Shown piece after piece: positions 22,498 through 39,568 of a DNA stretch of 44,211 nucleotides; positions within the stretch are counted from its first letter, which is position 1; every line of letters begins with the position of its first letter. The notes under the pieces are model-generated. The model was not told the origin of the DNA. It ran no database searches and saw only the letters and a program-made list of their open reading frames with translations. Made by a program: the position numbers and the translations under genes. Source of the DNA: a virus. Lineage: Duplodnaviria > Heunggongvirae > Uroviricota > Caudoviricetes. Location of the stretch: IMG/VR virus record IMGVR_UViG_2917413769_000009, positions 1 through 44,211 of that record. One strand, written 5' to 3'.

Positions 22498-24230
22498 TTA
22501 AAGCGAGCGGATCCCGTAGGACTCAATGTGGTCAGACAGCGTGTCTTCTTTCTCGTACAGCATGGCTCTGCCAACCGCCATAATCAGCGCAACTGCACCA
22601 TCGATTTTGTTTTCCGCCTGCTCTTTGACGGGCTTCACCACATCATCGTTACCCGGAATGGTTTTTCCGACCACGTTGCCGATACACCAGGTCATGATGG
22701 GATTGCCATCATGATGAAAGCGCCCCGATTCAATTGCCGCTTCCAGCTCTTTCATCGGGTCGGACATGTTGGTGTAGTTCTGAATGATGGTGACGGGGTT
22801 CAGGTCTTCATCAGCAAGGTCATGTGACAGCCCGGTCGCCCGAAGGGGTCGATGGGTGACTCGCTGACCGGGCTGATTTTGTTCGCCGCTTTGGCCTCTT
22901 CGAGGATGTAGCGATAATCCACCTCTGCACCATCGGTAACGGTCAGAACGCCCATTTCCACCCATTTCTGAAAGCGTTCGGCTGTCCGGCGATCTTCATT
23001 TTTCTCGACGCTATACACCGTGTCATACGGTACCCAGAAACGCGGGGCCACACTGTAGTAATGCGTTTTACCGTCAATCTCGCGGGTATAAAGTCGCGCC
23101 ATGCTGTTCATATCCAGCTTACGCGCCAGGTCAAAGGCCAGAATGCACGGCTGCCCCTCGAATTGCTCAAGAGTCAGTGATTTATCCTCGCAGCTCTGCC
23201 AGCTCACCAGGTTGAAATACGCCGAACGCGCCGACACCCAGATATTGAGGTGTTTTGTTTTAAAGACGTTTGCCAGACGGGCGTTATTTTTCGCACGCTG
23301 TTGCTGACTTAACAAAAACTCACGGTAAACCGACACCCCGATATTCGGGTTGGCTTTTTCCAGCACCTGTGGGTCGGTCCAGTCGTCACCTTCGTCAACG
23401 GTATAGATGATCCCGAACAGTTCATCGTTGGGTACCGAACCGTTGAGCATCTCGATAACTTCCCGCCGTTTGTCGTAGCACGGCCCCTCAATGTTGTACC
23501 CGGCGGTAGTGATAGCCCACATCAGTGGCTGACGTCGCGCCCCCATCCCGGTAATCATCGTGGTGTAAAGCGCATCTGTGGCGTGCTCGTGATATTCATC
23601 CACCACCGCACAGTGGGGTGATGAACCATCACCGGGGTTACCGATCAGCGGTTCAAACCGCGCCCCATCCTCCGGACGGTTCATGTTTGAGGCGTTAACC
23701 TCAATCCCGAACGCTTCCGTCAGCATTGGTGTGCGTTTACACATCAGTCGCGCCGGGCGAAAAACTTCCCACGCCTGTTTCTCTGTCGTGGCACCGGAAT
23801 ACACTTCCGCGCCAAACTCGTTATCACAGGCAAAACAATACAGGGCAACACCGGCAGAGATTGCCGATTTGCCGTTTTTACGGGGAATTTCGGTATACAC
23901 CTCCCGGAAGCGGCGCAACCGGGTGCCTTTATTGACCCAGCCAAACGCACAGCAGATCACAAATAGCTGCCACGGCTCCAGCGTGATGGGCATCCGTTTA
24001 AATGCCCACTCACCCTTGGTGTGCGGCAACAGCTGAATAAATTTGGCGGCCCGTTCAGCCAGGTCCTTGTCGAAGCGGTAACGAAACGACTTACTTTTTT
24101 CCGCCATCAGGTCATCAAGATGGCGCTGGCAGGCCTGAATCACAAACTGGCAGGCAACAATCTTTCCGCGCACGACATCCCGGGCATACTGATTTGCAGC
24201 ATTTACGTTGGGGTAAGATTTCCGGCTCAT
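22498..24230 (-). CDS. terminase large subunit; reading frame interrupted near the G4 run at 22845-22848
   Basis: N-terminal ATPase part is the 476-aa ORF 22800-24230, the C-terminal nuclease part continues in another frame to 22498 (...[22 protein letters not shown]...). Adding one G/C at the run gives a continuous ...[14 protein letters not shown]... Confidence 0.85.
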
Positions 24231-34328: not shown

Positions 34329-34625
34329 TCAGAATTTCATATCAATTTGCTTAGAGTCCCCGGCGGCCACCGGGGATTTTTTCTTTGTGATTCCATCAAG
34401 CGCATACTTAAAAGCCCTGCTAATCGGACTGATGTCTGATGCCATTCCGAAAGCACACAAGACCGAAGCAATAAATCTCCAGTCCGTTCTGCTTATCTTC
34501 GATTCATGACAGCCAATCATCTTTGCCAGACCGCGCTGTGTAAGCGTTGACAGGTTGATGAGTAAATCTGTTTCTGCGCGATCAACGTCGCGCTGTGATA
34601 GTTTGCTGTAACTTGTTCGTTCCAT
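34329..34625 (-). CDS. cII: CII-family transcriptional activator
   Basis: 98 aa in the cro-cII-O position; HTH region and C-terminus ...TKKKSPVAAGDSKQIDMKF parallel lambda CII (...TNKKRPAATERSEQIQMEF). Confidence 0.85.
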   Translation of the reverse strand: MERTSYSKLSQRDVDRAETDLLINLSTLTQRGLAKMIGCHESKISRTDWRFIASVLCAFGMASDISPISRAFKYALDGITKKKSPVAAGDSKQIDMKF

Positions 34626-34763: not shown

Positions 34764-34973
<210 letters not shown>

Positions 34974-35061: not shown

Positions 35062-35778
<717 letters not shown>

Positions 35779-35864
35779 CACGAAATAAACGTCCGACAAG
35801 CACAGCAGCCAATACCTAAAAAAAATATTTTGCCGAATATTCAGTTCGTTATAAAGGTTAAGCA

Positions 35865-36443
35865 TTGAGTATACCAACTGTCTCTCTATGGAATGAGATG
35901 GGGTTAATCCCCCCAATAGACGAGGCTGATCCTACAAGCCATACTCGTTCCCCATACAAAATGGATATAGTACGCTTTGTTAGTACTTTTTCGCTTAGCC
36001 CTGCAAGGATTAAAATCCTTAAGGGTTTTCTTAATTTTCGTGTTTCACTCACTCAAGCAGGGCTGGTTGAAGGTTTTCAGTGGGTAGATGGAAGCTTCAC
36101 AGAACATATTGAACTTATTGAAAAAAGGCCACCGAATGATGTCGATGTTGTGACCTTTTTTCAATTCAGTAATGGCGATAATGATGCAATCGTAATCGGT
36201 AGAAAGCCAGAGCTATTTGATCATGATTTTGTTAAGAAGGAGTTTTTCGTAGATTCCTACTTCCAAGAACTTAATCTACCAAGTCATGAGCTTGTTGAAA
36301 TGACTGTATATTGGTACAGTATGTGGGCACATAGACGCGATCTGTCGTGGAAGGGATTTATCCAAATCCCGTTAAACCCACAACTTGATGTTGTGGCAAT
36401 GACTATACTTAATTCGGCTGCTACTGAGGGGGTCAAACAATGA
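35865..36443 (+). CDS. hypothetical protein A of the cI-linked two-gene cassette (rexA position); possible nucleotidyltransferase-like fold
   Basis: 192-aa ORF from a TTG start (AAGG 7 nt upstream), or 181 aa from the ATG at 35898. Not hydrophobic; motif GFQWVDGSF-x14-DVDVV. Confidence 0.7.
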   Translation: MSIPTVSLWNEMGLIPPIDEADPTSHTRSPYKMDIVRFVSTFSLSPARIKILKGFLNFRVSLTQAGLVEGFQWVDGSFTEHIELIEKRPPNDVDVVTFFQFSNGDNDAIVIGRKPELFDHDFVKKEFFVDSYFQELNLPSHELVEMTVYWYSMWAHRRDLSWKGFIQIPLNPQLDVVAMTILNSAATEGVKQ

Positions 36444-37309
36444 ATCGTAATGATTATGTTTTCGCTCTCAGTGAGCGCGAGCAAATAAGTAATCTATTAA
36501 AAAATATGCCAACAAGTCATTCTATTAGCCGAAAAAGCTTAGAAGACCGTCTGGAGAAAGTTGAGCGATTAATTTCACAAGCTGACGTTCGAGAACATGA
36601 ACCTACGCATGCTGTGTTAACTTTTAGAGGCCCAACAGTAGTTGGCACGCATGGCATTTCAGCAGTATTTGGAACAAAAGCTATATCTTGTTTTAATGAT
36701 GCAATAGCTTACTTGGCAACCTCTTTCAATGGCCCACTTCCTGCATCAGGCAAGATACCAAACATAGAAAATAATCATCTCATGATTACCGCGTCAGCCC
36801 GTGGTTCTTTCGGATTCGTACTTGAAGAGTTTAGACCTGATGCTCCTCTTGAATTCGATGAAGAAACCCCAGTAGCAAAAGCTATTAATAAGGCCAGAAA
36901 AATATTTCAGGCAAGCTTGGATAATGATGATGAAGAATTGTCTGATGCTATAGAAAACTTAGACTCTCGGGCCTTAGATAAAATCAGAGCGTTCATTCAT
37001 TATCTGCATGAAAATAAAACAGTTTTTACACTTAAAAGCCAAGGTTTTAGCATCGTTTTTAGAGAGCCAAAACAGCTTGAAGCTGTATATCAACATCTCA
37101 GCAATGATAATATTCAGCAGGAAAAAATTATTGAGAACGTTATATTTTTGGGAACTCTTCCTAACAAGCGCCAATGTGAATTTATAGTTTTAGGTAACAC
37201 TGATATCAGAACCGCTAGCATTGACAAAGCTGTAGATGACCCAGATATTATAAACAAGCACTTAGGAAGCGTTGCAACAGCCACGTTCCTGAAAAAAAAC
37301 TGTTGGTAA
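36440..37309 (+). CDS. hypothetical protein B of the cI-linked two-gene cassette (rexB position)
   Basis: 289-aa ORF, ATG overlaps the stop of gene A (ATGA), SD GAGGGGG; AT-rich; no TM segments; the only motif noted is R-x6-H (RAFIHYLH) in a helical stretch. Confidence 0.7.
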   Translation: MNRNDYVFALSEREQISNLLKNMPTSHSISRKSLEDRLEKVERLISQADVREHEPTHAVLTFRGPTVVGTHGISAVFGTKAISCFNDAIAYLATSFNGPLPASGKIPNIENNHLMITASARGSFGFVLEEFRPDAPLEFDEETPVAKAINKARKIFQASLDNDDEELSDAIENLDSRALDKIRAFIHYLHENKTVFTLKSQGFSIVFREPKQLEAVYQHLSNDNIQQEKIIENVIFLGTLPNKRQCEFIVLGNTDIRTASIDKAVDDPDIINKHLGSVATATFLKKNCW

Positions 37310-37385
37310 GGGCAAACCCAGATACACTCTGGTTTCTCGACCTCAATGGGATATTAAATCTATCGATTAGAATGAGCCCCTTCAA

Positions 37386-37412
37386 CCCGGCCTCCGCGCC
37401 GGGTTTTCTTTT
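37386..37412 (+). terminator. rho-independent terminator after the cI-linked cassette (t_imm-like)
   Basis: CCCGGC-CTCCGC-GCCGGG followed by TTTTCTTTT. Confidence 0.65.
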
Positions 37413-37560
37413 ACCATCACCCCGTCAAAAACACACCTAACGAATTGTATTTATTGAATAAATATAAATCACACTTATCACATTGCGCAATTCAGCTCCT
37501 ACACATCCAGACTAGCTCTGCAAAACTTTAAAAAATAAATCAATAGTAAAAACATGCACA

Positions 37561-37632
37561 TAACCATTTGCGGTAATATTTTATCTCTAGCGGTGTTGAC
37601 GAAAATACCTCCAGCGGTGATACTAAACACAT
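37561..37632 (+). promoter_or_regulatory. left operator OL1-3 and promoter PL
   Basis: OL3 TAACCATTTGCGGTAATA (37561-37578), OL2 TATCTCTAGCGGTGTTG (37582-37598), OL1 TACCTCCAGCGGTGATA (37606-37622); PL -35 TTGACG (37596-37601), -10 GATACT (37619-37624), 17-bp spacer; start region ATCAGCAGG as in lambda. Confidence 0.85.
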
Positions 37633-37715: not shown

Positions 37716-37813
37716 GATCACCCAACCACATAAGCTGTGGGATGCAATGCCGAAGCAACCGTCTCAGGAGGAGCTTCGAGATTGCATCGCCAAAGTTTAT
37801 TCGGGAGGAATCT

Positions 37814-38086
37814 ATGTCCAGAAAAACAGAATTTAAAGGCACCGCAGCTTCTCGCCGTAGAGCACGTCGCGCAAATCTGCAAAGTCAGGAGGCGATCAGC
37901 TCCGACAAGCTACACAGGCCAACCCCTTCACGAGTGGTCTTGCAATGCAAGCGCAAACCAGCAATGAGAGCAGAAGTTATAACTCTGACAACGTTGACCA
38001 GAAAATATGAAGGTTCAACTTGTCTTCCGAACGTAGCTCTTTACGCGGCAGGCTACCGGAAATCAAAACAACTGACAGCGAGGTAA
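37814..38086 (+). CDS. N: N-like early antiterminator (arginine-rich motif)
   Basis: First gene of the PL operon; MSRKTEFKGTAASRRRARRANLQSQEAI... has an N-terminal arginine-rich motif like lambdoid N proteins; SD GGGAGG. Not lambda N itself. Confidence 0.7.
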   Translation: MSRKTEFKGTAASRRRARRANLQSQEAISSDKLHRPTPSRVVLQCKRKPAMRAEVITLTTLTRKYEGSTCLPNVALYAAGYRKSKQLTAR

Positions 38087-38144: not shown

Positions 38145-38231
38145 ATGGAAGAAGAATTTGAAGAGTTCGAAGAGCATCCGCAGGATGTGATGGAACAATA
38201 CCAGGACTACCCTTATGACTACGACTATTGA
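38145..38231 (+). CDS. acidic 28-aa peptide (lambda orf28-like position)
   Basis: MEEEFEEFEEHPQDVMEQYQDYPYDYDY, overlapping the ral start in another frame. Confidence 0.45.
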   Translation: MEEEFEEFEEHPQDVMEQYQDYPYDYDY

Positions 38232-38415
38232 TAAGAATCAATGGTGTGGACAATTCAAGCGATGCAATGGATGCAAGCTGCAATCGGAATGCATGGTTAA
38301 GCCTGAAGAAATGTTTCCTGTAATGGAAGATGGGAAATATGTCGATAAATGAGCAATACGAACGACGGCAATGATTGCCAGAGAACTTGGTAAACAGAAC
38401 AACAAGGCTGCCTGA
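38215..38415 (+). pseudogene. ral: ral (restriction alleviation) interrupted by an in-frame TGA at 38350-38352
   Basis: MTTTIDKNQWCGQFKRCNGCKLQSECMVKPEEMFPVMEDGKYVDK-stop-AIRTTAMIARELGKQNNKAA; lambda Ral as recalled has Trp (TGG) at this codon and runs on to the same C-terminus. Confidence 0.6.
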
Positions 38416-38549
38416 TGGTGGCCTTTATTTTTGGCATAAACAACAGAATAAACACAGCACTGTGTATTCATTCCAACGAGTGAATACACGGAGCAATGTC
38501 GCTCGTAACTAAACAGGAGCCGACTTGTTCTGATTATTGGAAATCTTCT

Positions 38550-38580
38550 TTGCCCTCCAATGTGAGGGCGATTTTTTATC
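38550..38580 (+). terminator. rho-independent terminator within the PL operon (tL-like)
   Basis: GCCCTC-CAATGT-GAGGGC followed by GATTTTTTAT (stem 38552-38569, T-run 38572-38577). Confidence 0.55.
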
Positions 38581-38589
38581 TATGAGGAT

Positions 38590-38967
38590 ATGAATAGATG
38601 TCAAACATCAAAAAAATACATCATTGATTACGACTGGAAAGCATCAATAGAAATTGAAATCGACCATGACGTAATGACAGAGGAAAAACTTCACCAGATT
38701 AATAATTTCTGGTCAGACTCTGAATACCGACTCAATAAACACGGCGCTGTATTAAATGCTGTATTAATCATGCTGGCGCAACATGCTCTGCTTATAGCAA
38801 TTTCGAAAGACTTAAATGCATATGGTGTTGTTTGTGAGTTCGACTGGGATGATGGAAATGGTCAGGAAGGATGGCCTCCAATGGATGGTAGTGAAGGAAT
38901 AAGAATTACCGATATCGATACATCAGGAATATTTGATTCAGATGATATGACTATCAAAGCCGCCTGA
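38590..38967 (+). CDS. Ea10-like early protein; probable true start at the ATG at 38598, disrupted by an extra A in the A7 run
   Basis: The long ORF starts at an ATG with SD spacing of only 1 nt. The ATG at 38598 has good SD spacing but reads MSNIKKIHH-stop; with A6 instead of A7 (38610-38616) it would read MSNIKKYIIDYDWK... into the long ORF. Confidence 0.5.
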   Translation: MNRCQTSKKYIIDYDWKASIEIEIDHDVMTEEKLHQINNFWSDSEYRLNKHGAVLNAVLIMLAQHALLIAISKDLNAYGVVCEFDWDDGNGQEGWPPMDGSEGIRITDIDTSGIFDSDDMTIKAA

Positions 38968-39042
38968 GCGCGGCTTTACCGCATACCAACAATGCTTCAC
39001 GAGAGGCATTTTCGTTATGCAATCAAATATAAGGAGTTACCC

Positions 39043-39177
39043 ATGATGCACTTTCAGCTCGCGGGTAGCGGCGTCATGTCCGCTTTCTACCCGCACGAAT
39101 CTGAATTATCACGCCGAGTTAAACAATTAATCAGAGCAGCAAAGAAACAACTGGAGGCGTTATGCGCAATGAAATAG
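39043..39177 (+). CDS. cIII: CIII-like protease inhibitor
   Basis: Start at MMHFQLAGSGVMSAFYPHESELSRRVKQLIRAAKKQLEALCAMK (SD AAGGAG); amphipathic helix pattern and position resemble lambda CIII. Confidence 0.6.
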   Translation: MMHFQLAGSGVMSAFYPHESELSRRVKQLIRAAKKQLEALCAMK

Positions 39178-39314
39178 CCATTAATCACCAGATGCTTCGT
39201 GCTGCACAGAACAAGGCAGTAATAGCCCGATTTATTGGTGATTCAAAAATGTGGCTTGAAGCAAATAAAGCGATGAAATCAGCTATCAACCTTCCGTGGT
39301 ATCGCAGGAAATGA
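39162..39314 (+). CDS. kil: Kil-like small protein
   Basis: Hand translation MRNEIAINHQMLRAAQNKAVIARFIGDSKMWLEANKAMKSAINLPWYRRK (50 aa), SD GGAGG; position after cIII as in lambda. Confidence 0.45.
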   Translation: MRNEIAINHQMLRAAQNKAVIARFIGDSKMWLEANKAMKSAINLPWYRRK

Positions 39315-39469
39315 GTTTTACAGATAACTGGTCAGACGAAGAATTCATTCGTCAGATGAAAGAATTAATCGGTAACGAAGGAGATATTCATGTCACTTGC
39401 AACCACAGTGAAGGAGAGCAAGTTACAGAGACGCATGTACACGCAGAAAGCTCTCTGGTATCGCCATAA
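39311..39469 (+). CDS. small hypothetical ORF (52 aa) coupled to kil
   Basis: ATG overlaps the kil stop (ATGA); MSFTDNWSDEEFIRQMKELIGNEGDIHVTCNHSEGEQVTETHVHAESSLVSP. Confidence 0.3.
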   Translation: MSFTDNWSDEEFIRQMKELIGNEGDIHVTCNHSEGEQVTETHVHAESSLVSP

Positions 39470-39568
39470 TGGCGACCGCGAAGGAATGCGGGTATGCCTT
39501 AATTTGTCCCGAGTCGAAGTATTAAATCAGCGTTATTTCATTGGGCCATGTCCATTCTGAGGTGAATT

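What the first reader, a model, noticed from the sequence alone, without database searches (positions are those of the whole stretch)
35865..37412. Unrecognised two-gene cassette in the rexAB slot, linked to cI
Directly downstream of a lambda-type cI, on the same strand and before the t_imm-like terminator and PL, lambda carries rexA-rexB (abortive infection). Here that slot holds two different genes (192 aa and 289 aa) with ATGA start/stop overlap and visibly AT-rich sequence. Neither product is a membrane protein like RexB, and neither resembles RexA/RexB or any family I recognise. Genes here are expressed in the lysogen from PRM and almost always serve prophage-encoded exclusion, so this is the best candidate for an undescribed defence module in the window.
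Basis: partly seen in the sequence, partly recalled or inferred. Interest (0 to 1): 0.85.

Follow-up and report, generated by a model that had tools for sequence, protein, structure and literature searches.

The report
Prophage nucleotidyltransferase–OB-fold gene pair
Downstream of the phage repressor, where lambda carries rexAB, this prophage has an uncharacterised gene pair (a small nucleotidyltransferase and an OB-fold partner) that is always inherited together; it is a credible but untested anti-phage candidate, and this copy carries a frameshift.

Summary
Its GC is 39% against 50% for the window.

Two corrections are needed. Gene A belongs to a known family: Pfam DUF6932. It has a Pol-beta-type nucleotidyltransferase motif (invariant GS, DxD, D), a weak NTase fold match, and a hit to the PADLOC candidate PDC-M63A. 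Gene B is 309 aa in every relative. The window has A8 instead of A7 at 37292-37299, which cuts off the conserved end of a C-terminal OB fold. This could be a sequencing error or real decay; the terminase gene has a second homopolymer frameshift.

Gene B belongs to an unnamed family of about 1,465 clusters at 50% identity, with no Pfam or PDB relative. A and B were adjacent in all 55 other loci fetched, from Enterobacterales to Planctomycetes. Most distinct upstream neighbours are unrelated CI-type repressors. Other copies sit in other prophage cargo sites, in solitary islets, and once beside a CBASS system.

My best reading is a lysogen-expressed, NTase-regulated conflict module, probably phage exclusion. 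Function is unproven, and the only test of the related PDC-M63 was negative.

The parts
35065..35778 (+). cI-type repressor (237 aa). It is the first gene of the presumed cI-A-B transcription unit.
   Evidence: HTH_3 (5e-12) and Peptidase_S24 (6e-27) domains. The divergent PR-like promoter TTGACT-17-GATAAT lies at 35017-34989 on the - strand.
35779..35864 (+). cI-A intergenic spacer (86 nt) with no terminator.
   Evidence: No terminator-like site was found here. The RNA is unstructured (MFE -5.2 kcal/mol, z = +1.77). A purine-rich AAAGG lies 7 nt before the TTG start.
35865..36443 (+). Gene A: a 192-aa soluble protein of Pfam DUF6932 with a predicted Pol-beta-type nucleotidyltransferase core.
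36440..37309 (+). Gene B as it reads in the window (289 aa), truncated by a frameshift.
   Evidence: It is identical to the 309-aa P0001 except K80Q, up to residue 286. phrog_18731 1.4e-46. No Pfam, NCBIfam or PADLOC family.
36440..37371 (+). Gene B over its full ancestral extent (309 aa in relatives). Predicted layout: N-terminal helical hairpin, an alpha/beta domain carrying the invariant GSFGFxLE motif, a helical region, and a C-terminal OB fold at residues ~225-297.
37292..37299 (+). A8 homopolymer, the site of the +1 frameshift (A7 in relatives).
   Evidence: Pairwise alignment with CE10 and motif search in the IMG/VR copies.
37384..37413 (+). Intrinsic terminator that closes the cassette (8-bp, 6-GC stem followed by a U-run).
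   Evidence: Equivalent terminators lie directly after B in Salmonella, Pectobacterium and Proteus loci.
37596..37624 (+). PL-like promoter. It marks the right boundary of the slot and is not part of the cassette.
   Evidence: TTGACG-17-GATACT. An N-like ORF lies downstream at 37742-38086.

Best explanation
The cassette is an autonomous, strictly paired two-gene module carried as prophage cargo behind the repressor gene. It is probably co-transcribed with cI and therefore made in the lysogen.

Gene A encodes a small soluble Pol-beta-superfamily nucleotidyltransferase (DUF6932) whose catalytic GS / DxD / D residues are under strict selection. Gene B encodes a soluble ~309-aa protein of an unnamed family. 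Its C-terminal OB fold probably binds a nucleic acid or oligonucleotide.

The most likely role is a conflict system that excludes other phages. In this model the NTase controls its partner in one of two ways. It could nucleotidylate B, following the logic of MNT-HEPN type VII toxin-antitoxin pairs, where the NTase gene also comes first. Or it could make a nucleotide or oligonucleotide ligand that the OB fold of B holds, following the logic of Hailong and Clover. Infection would then break that control.

Shown: gene structure, pairing, family membership, motif conservation, predicted folds, and genomic contexts. Inferred: co-transcription with cI, enzymatic activity, what B binds, and the defence role itself.

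In this particular window B is frameshifted at an A-run and loses the last conserved strand of the OB fold. This copy is therefore either inactive or mis-sequenced.
For: - Pairing: a DUF6932 gene lies immediately upstream of a B homologue, on the same strand, with a gap of -65 to +12 nt, in all 55 other loci fetched.
- Depth of pairing: B homologues are 43% identical in Proteus, 34% in Burkholderia and 32% in a planctomycete.
- Co-inheritance: pairwise identities of A and B correlate across 31 distinct pairs (Pearson r = 0.95, Spearman 0.77).
- Active-site conservation in A: G76, S77, D92, D94 and D130 are invariant.
- OB fold in B.
- Operon structure: no terminator before A and a terminator after B, in four divergent loci.
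- Cargo behaviour: of 26 distinct upstream same-strand genes, 17 carry HTH_3, 11 Peptidase_S24 and 5 Phage_CI_repr, at only 12-62% identity to this cI.
- Other contexts: a Raoultella prophage between the lysis genes and terminase; solitary chromosomal islets in Caulobacter and Burkholderia; beside an inovirus; beside an integrase on a P. aeruginosa megaplasmid.
- Defence neighbourhood: neighbour genes pooled from seven non-lambdoid loci hit PADLOC CBASS cyclase, capH and capP models. These are most likely the SMODS, HTH and M78 genes of integrase island L009.
- Foreign composition: 39% GC against 50%.
- Variable slot: related phages carry other cargo here, including the toxin-antitoxin pair hicAB.
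- Candidate status of relatives: A hits PDC-M63A and one B homologue hits PDC-M63B at 6.7e-7. PDC systems were proposed because they are embedded inside BREX, DISARM, Hma or type I RM loci.
- Tolerated loss of B: B is disrupted while A stays intact in two independent cases, the window and L042. This fits B as the dispensable effector better than B as an essential antitoxin.
Against: - There is no experimental evidence for any function of DUF6932 or the B family. No paper mentions DUF6932.
- Deleting PDC-M63AB in E. coli NILS69 changed nothing for 10 virulent phages.
- B has no recognisable effector domain: no nuclease, transmembrane segment, HEPN or HD domain.
- The top OB-fold matches include metal-binding SilF, so nucleic-acid binding is only a guess.
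- The B protein of this window does not match the PDC-M63B models.
- B is absent from 50,697 deposited phage genomes.
- Most contexts are prophage cargo sites, which also carry toxin-antitoxin pairs and virulence genes.
- Transcription from PRM was not measured.
Confidence: 0.42

Rival explanations
1. The pair is a toxin-antitoxin or addiction module that stabilises the prophage or other mobile element, with no role against phages. One protein would be toxic and the other would neutralise it.
For: The layout fits: two small overlapping genes, strict pairing and co-inheritance. The closest structural neighbours of A include MNT antitoxins of HEPN-MNT pairs (8xeh, 5yep, 1no5). The same slot in HK106 and mEp234 holds hicAB. 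Solitary islets and plasmid copies exist.
Against: B has no known toxin fold or motif, and is not HEPN. No hit to any TA-type model in PADLOC apart from the PDC-M63 candidate. Many toxin-antitoxin systems also defend against phages, so this rival overlaps with the main reading.
Confidence: 0.2
2. The pair serves the phage itself rather than protecting the host. It could tune lysogeny or induction, modify nucleic acid, or counter a host defence, for example by sequestering or altering a nucleotide signal.
For: It is operon-linked to the master regulator cI in many unrelated immunity regions. Transcripts from a lambda-type PRE promoter would also cross it early in infection; this rests on established lambda biology, and no PRE was located here. 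An NTase plus an OB fold could act on DNA or RNA ends.
Against: The same pair occurs outside prophages, in chromosomal islets next to housekeeping genes and on a megaplasmid. It also occurs at a quite different prophage site, next to the lysis genes. It is absent from all 50,697 deposited phage genomes. This argues against a function tied to the phage life cycle.
Confidence: 0.13
3. In this window the cassette is a dead remnant. The A8 frameshift is real, B lacks its last OB-fold strand, and the prophage as a whole is decaying.
For: A8 against A7 removes 23 residues, including the nearly invariant G289, P293, L297 and P301. The terminase large subunit of the same prophage is also split by a 1-nt homopolymer deletion at about 22838. 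Another locus, L042, has an independently split B.
Against: Both indels are in homopolymers, which is the classic signature of sequencing or assembly error. Apart from the indel, A and B differ from the CE10 copy by only a handful of substitutions. All nine 100%-identical IMG/VR copies are intact.
Confidence: 0.4
4. The pair is a functional analogue of RexAB, with a sensor and a membrane channel that depolarises the cell.
For: Only the position between cI and the terminator/PL.
Against: Neither protein has a hydrophobic segment. There is no PADLOC hit to RexA or RexB. The predicted folds are an NTase and an OB fold.
Confidence: 0.02

Closest known systems
PADLOC phage-defence candidate PDC-M63 (A+B), predicted by 'guilt-by-embedding' (bioRxiv 10.1101/2024.01.29.577857)
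   Same: Same two-gene layout: a small protein (profiles of 133-152 positions) followed by a protein whose profile is 309 positions long. Gene A and all A homologues tested hit PDC-M63A (1e-10 to 1e-17). One B homologue from Burkholderia hits PDC-M63B co-linearly at 6.7e-7.
   Different: The window's B and 22 other B homologues do not reach the PDC-M63B models. PADLOC v2 would therefore probably not call this locus. PDC-M63 is itself unvalidated, and its only test was negative.
Type VII toxin-antitoxin HEPN-MNT (minimal nucleotidyltransferase antitoxin that AMPylates its HEPN toxin)
   Different: The partner is not HEPN. It has no Rx4-6H motif, no HEPN hit in Pfam or PADLOC, and a different predicted fold ending in an OB barrel. 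A is about 190 aa and has extra conserved N- and C-terminal elements. The AMPylation mechanism is from my own knowledge and was not checked in a paper here.
Hailong (HalB NTase + HalA channel) and Clover (CloB NTase + CloA dNTPase): NTase-made inhibitory nucleotide signals (PMC12265719)
   Same: A Pol-beta NTase is paired with a single partner protein. The idea that a constitutively made nucleotide or oligonucleotide restrains the partner would fit an OB-fold ligand-binding domain.
   Different: B is neither a membrane channel nor an HD dNTPase. No homology of A to HalB or CloB was demonstrated. This is a mechanistic analogy only. The Hailong details are from my own knowledge plus the mention in PMC12265719.
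Lambda RexAB
   Same: Same genomic slot (cI, cargo, terminator, PL) and presumably the same lysogen expression.
   Different: No sequence or fold similarity. Neither protein is a membrane protein.
AbiE (AbiEi/AbiEii) and MenAT nucleotidyltransferase toxins
   Same: A Pol-beta-fold NTase in a two-gene abortive-infection or toxin-antitoxin module.
   Different: There the NTase is the second gene and is a larger DUF1814-type toxin, with a DNA-binding or MenA antitoxin. There was no PADLOC AbiE hit here. The comparison rests on my knowledge of those families.

Membership tests
Pfam DUF6932 (PF22014) | Score above the curated gathering threshold over the full model. | tested here: met
   93.6 bits against a cut-off of 27, covering model positions 3-141 of 142. 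All 43 aligned homologues also match.
Pol-beta superfamily nucleotidyltransferase | hG[GS] motif, then [DE]h[DE]h on the next strand, plus a third carboxylate on a later strand. | tested here: met
   G76-S77, D92-x-D94 and D130 are invariant in 43 sequences. They lie on or next to predicted strands 69-75, 93-100 and 129-135.
Pol-beta superfamily nucleotidyltransferase | Alpha/beta NTase core fold. | tested here: inconclusive
Pol-beta superfamily nucleotidyltransferase | Nucleotidyl-transfer activity. | not testable with these tools
   Needs biochemistry.
PADLOC PDC-M63 | Component A matches a PDC-M63A model. | tested here: met
   PDLC04744 2.2e-10 and PDLC04745 1.5e-4.
PADLOC PDC-M63 | Adjacent component B matches a PDC-M63B model. 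| tested here: not met
   No hit at E <= 1 for the window protein or for the intact 309-aa form. Only 1 of 24 B proteins scanned (the two forms of this cassette's B plus 22 other homologues) reaches significance, L013 at 6.7e-7; a second gives a marginal 0.036.
PADLOC PDC-M63 | Demonstrated anti-phage activity. | not testable with these tools
   The literature reports one negative test of the candidate itself.
RexAB | Homology to RexA and RexB, with RexB a polytopic membrane protein. | tested here: not met
   No PADLOC Rex hit. Maximum 19-residue hydropathy is 1.1-1.2.
RexAB | Location between cI and the immunity terminator/PL, on the cI strand. | tested here: met
HEPN-MNT type VII toxin-antitoxin | Partner protein is a HEPN domain with an Rx4-6H motif. 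| tested here: not met
   No HEPN family in Pfam or PADLOC. No invariant R...H pair in the alignment. The predicted fold is mixed alpha/beta with an OB barrel.
CBASS / CD-NTase | NTase matches cyclase models and is linked to an effector with a signal-binding domain. | tested here: not met
OB-fold single-stranded nucleic-acid binding proteins (SSB/PriB/RPA type) | Five-stranded OB barrel. | tested here: met
OB-fold single-stranded nucleic-acid binding proteins (SSB/PriB/RPA type) | Sequence-family membership or demonstrated nucleic-acid binding. | tested here: not met
   No Pfam or PDB sequence match. Binding is not testable here.

The most novel reading that the evidence does not exclude
The DUF6932 NTase and its OB-fold partner form a new kind of soluble 'guarded' immune pair. 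The NTase would constitutively make, or attach, a nucleotide or oligonucleotide that the OB fold of B holds. Phage nucleases, single-strand binding proteins or nucleotide-pool changes would release B to act through its unclassified N-terminal domains. This would be a widespread family (about 1,465 clusters at 50% identity) that current defence finders miss, and it would ride mainly in the repressor operon of temperate phages.
Probability: 0.15. Interest if true: 0.85.

Novelty: new variant of a known kind. Interest (0 to 1): 0.55.

Why it matters
If the pair is a defence system, it adds a new partner class to the NTase-based immune modules (MNT-HEPN, AbiE, CBASS, Hailong, Clover). That partner is a soluble protein with an OB fold and no Pfam family. 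It would also show that the repressor operon of many unrelated temperate phages carries the same exclusion cargo.

Because PADLOC v2 models miss component B, hundreds of such loci may currently go uncounted in defence surveys. The pair is also compact (1.5 kb) and cleanly bounded, so it is easy to clone and test.

If it turns out to be only a stabilising toxin-antitoxin pair, or this copy is dead, the finding is of modest interest.

Tried and rejected
- Sequence searches for B against Pfam, NCBIfam, PADLOC and PDB, with a single sequence and with profiles, gave nothing significant.
- The PDB profile search for A returned only spurious repeat matches to designed PPR proteins. I ignored them.
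- Foldseek of the B model against PDB gave no hit better than E = 0.02. Only the OB fold could be named, and the N-terminal and middle domains remain unclassified.
- Weak hits to Cmr3 (phmmer E = 1.7, Foldseek E = 0.3) were considered as a possible RAMP-like glycine loop. I rejected them as noise.
- Megablast and tblastn against 50,697 deposited phage genomes found no copy of the cassette.
- An Rfam scan and a repeat search of the slot found no RNA component and no repeat array, so this is not a ToxIN- or retron-like system.
- The 16-nt inverted repeat inside gene A was tested for conservation. It is kept only in close relatives, so it is probably a by-product of the codons used.
- Literature searches for DUF6932 and for the RefSeq accessions of both proteins found nothing.
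- Brenes & Laub 2025, on E. coli prophage defence systems, could not be read. I therefore cannot exclude that this pair was tested there.
- RexAB-like, HEPN-MNT, AbiE, CBASS, Hailong and Clover membership were each considered and rejected on the partner protein.
Full report
**1. Observation**

The + strand of this window runs in lambda's leftward direction. The gene order is as follows:

| Feature | Coordinates | Strand |
|---|---|---|
| cII-like | 34329-34625 | - |
| cro-like | 34764-34964 | - |
| PR-like promoter | 35017-34989 | - |
| cI (237 aa; HTH_3 + Peptidase_S24) | 35065-35778 | + |
| spacer (86 nt) | 35779-35864 | + |
| gene A | 35865-36443 | + |
| gene B | 36440-37309 | + |
| GC-rich hairpin + U-run | 37384-37405 | + |
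| PL-like promoter (TTGACG-17-GATACT) | 37596-37624 | + |
| N-like ORF | 37742-38086 | + |

A and B overlap by ATGA. The spacer has no terminator and is unstructured. The hairpin after B is stable.

The cassette is 39.2% GC against 49.6% for the window, which puts it in the lowest 0.8% of equal-sized windows. Neither protein has a hydrophobic segment. The sequence-level observation is therefore correct.

**2. Two corrections**

First, gene B is frameshifted in this window. In E. coli CE10 (99.3% identical DNA) B is 309 aa. All nine 100%-identical IMG/VR copies are also 309 aa. The window has A8 at 37292-37299 where CE10 and the IMG/VR copies checked have A7. This replaces the last 23 residues with NCW-stop. 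The lost tail, TVGxGKPR[YF]xLxxxPxW, is conserved across the family. It forms the end of the predicted OB barrel.

The same prophage has a second homopolymer indel. A C3-versus-C4 difference at about 22838 splits the terminase large subunit. Two homopolymer frameshifts in 44 kb point either to sequencing error or to a decaying prophage. I cannot decide between these.

Second, gene A is not an orphan. It is a clear member of Pfam DUF6932 and of phrog_9194. It also hits the PADLOC candidate PDC-M63A.

**3. What the proteins are**

*Gene B.* It has no Pfam, NCBIfam, PADLOC or PDB sequence relative. The AF2 model (pLDDT 86) shows five parts:
- an N-terminal helical hairpin;
- an alpha/beta domain carrying the invariant GSFGFxLE and GxxGIxxxFG motifs;
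- a helical segment;
- a small beta unit;
- a C-terminal OB fold at residues ~225-297.

The family is sizeable and uniform. It has 1,465 representatives at 50% identity with E <= 1e-3, and 608 with E <= 1e-30. Nearly all listed members are 295-325 aa with a single full-length match, so there are no domain fusions that would give a clue.

**4. The pair is one unit**

In all 55 other loci fetched, a DUF6932 gene lies immediately upstream of a B homologue on the same strand. The gap ranges from -65 to +12 nt. The loci include CE10, Salmonella, Pectobacterium, Proteus, Burkholderia, a planctomycete, Caulobacter, Bradyrhizobium, Raoultella, a Bacillota MAG, a P. aeruginosa megaplasmid and 32 IMG/VR contigs.

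Profile comparison confirms that the distant partners are true B homologues (probability 100%, E 1e-52 to 1e-60). Pairwise identities of A and B correlate across 31 distinct pairs (Pearson r = 0.95, Spearman 0.77). The two genes are co-inherited and presumably work together.

**5. Context**

The immunity region is HK97/lambda-like. Related phages carry other cargo in the same slot: gp49/gp48 in HK97, hicAB in HK106 and mEp234, and an NYN-domain gene in 2B8. By established knowledge, lambda carries rexAB there.

I examined the 26 distinct genes found just upstream of A on the same strand. Of these, 17 carry HTH_3, 11 Peptidase_S24 and 5 Phage_CI_repr, yet they are only 12-62% identical to this cI. 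The module has therefore been placed behind many different repressors. In Salmonella, Pectobacterium and Proteus loci, a strong terminator again follows B directly, and no convincing terminator precedes A.

The pair also occurs in other settings:
- between the lysis genes and the terminase of a Raoultella prophage;
- as solitary two-gene islets next to housekeeping genes in Caulobacter, Burkholderia gladioli and a planctomycete;
- beside an inovirus;
- next to an integrase on a P. aeruginosa megaplasmid.

When neighbour genes from seven non-lambdoid loci were pooled and scanned, they hit PADLOC CBASS cyclase, capH and capP models. The output does not say which locus. The most likely source is integrase island L009, which has SMODS, HTH and M78 genes.

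The pair is rare in E. coli, with 8 of 5,426 complete genomes carrying it. It is absent from 50,697 deposited phage genomes. This pattern of an autonomous, mobile, patchy module in cargo sites is typical of defence and toxin-antitoxin systems. It does not prove either.

**6. Relation to known systems**

The nearest catalogued entity is PADLOC's PDC-M63. It is one of 145 candidates proposed because homologues are embedded inside BREX, DISARM, Hma or type I RM loci.

All A homologues tested match PDC-M63A. Only one of the 24 B proteins scanned reaches significance against PDC-M63B: the Burkholderia homologue, at 6.7e-7, co-linear with a 309-position model. A second gives a marginal 0.036. I read this cassette as a sister branch of PDC-M63 that current models would not call.

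PDC-M63 is itself unvalidated. Its deletion in E. coli NILS69 did not change sensitivity to 10 virulent phages, and the authors note that their phage panel was narrow.

Membership in RexAB, HEPN-MNT, AbiE, CBASS, Hailong and Clover is rejected because the partner protein does not fit. See the membership table.

**7. Mechanism**

My best reading (confidence about 0.4) is a lysogen-expressed conflict module in which the NTase controls the OB-fold partner. Two sub-models fit the anatomy:
- A nucleotidylates B. This is the logic of type VII toxin-antitoxin pairs, and the NTase gene comes first there too.
- A makes a nucleotide or oligonucleotide that the OB fold of B binds. This is the logic of Hailong and Clover (PMC12265719).

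B is disrupted twice independently while A stays intact, in the window and in L042. This weakly suggests that B is a dispensable effector rather than an indispensable antitoxin.

The rivals are a pure addiction module, a phage-benefit function, and a dead copy in this window. All mechanistic steps beyond gene structure, motif conservation and predicted fold are inference.

**8. Verdict**

The finding is real and reasonably interesting. It is a widespread, strictly paired NTase and OB-fold module of unknown function, sitting in the rexAB slot. It is only distantly related to an unvalidated candidate system, and its second component has no family name.

Three things temper the interest: there are no functional data, the one test of the related candidate was negative, and this copy is frameshifted.

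- Novelty: new variant of a known kind (NTase-based two-gene conflict modules).
- Interest: 0.55.

Noticed in passing
window 22498-24230 (- strand), indel at ~22838: The terminase large subunit is split into 476-aa and 155-aa ORFs by a 1-nt deletion in a C/G homopolymer. A 98.2%-identical E. coli prophage has one intact 577-aa gene. With the A8 run in gene B, this makes two homopolymer frameshifts in the window, from either sequencing error or prophage decay.
   Followed up: partly
window 36117-36165 (inside gene A): A 16-nt inverted repeat (ATTGAAAAAAGGCCAC / GTGACCTTTTTTCAAT, dG about -16 kcal/mol) spans the codons of the catalytic DxD motif and looks like a terminator on both strands. It is kept in the close E. 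coli/Salmonella clade but not in distant homologues, so it is probably a by-product of the IEKR...TFFQ codons.
   Followed up: yes
L016 (HK97), L017 (phage 2B8), hits H21-H25 (HK106, mEp234): The slot between cI and PL/N is a cargo hotspot in HK97-like phages. It holds gp49/gp48 in HK97, hicAB in HK106 and mEp234, and an NYN-domain gene in 2B8. A systematic census of this slot could yield more candidate systems.
   Followed up: partly
L010-L012 4614-4949 (Proteus mirabilis prophage): In Proteus an extra DUF3024 gene sits between the S24 repressor and the A-B pair, so the repressor operon there carries three cargo genes.
   Followed up: no
L042 5001-5890: This IMG/VR prophage also has gene B split into two ORFs while gene A is intact. 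It is a second, independent disruption of B.
   Followed up: partly
L009 5096-10370: A distant A-B pair lies on an integrase-bearing island next to genes with DUF4238, SMODS, Tle1-like lipase, HTH and M78 peptidase domains. These probably account for the CBASS cyclase, capH and capP hits found when neighbours were pooled. It looks like a small defence island.
   Followed up: partly
window 38215-39560 (+ strand): A run of small ORFs of unknown function (45-125 aa) lies between the N-like gene and the ORFs at 39569-40783. They were not examined.
   Followed up: no
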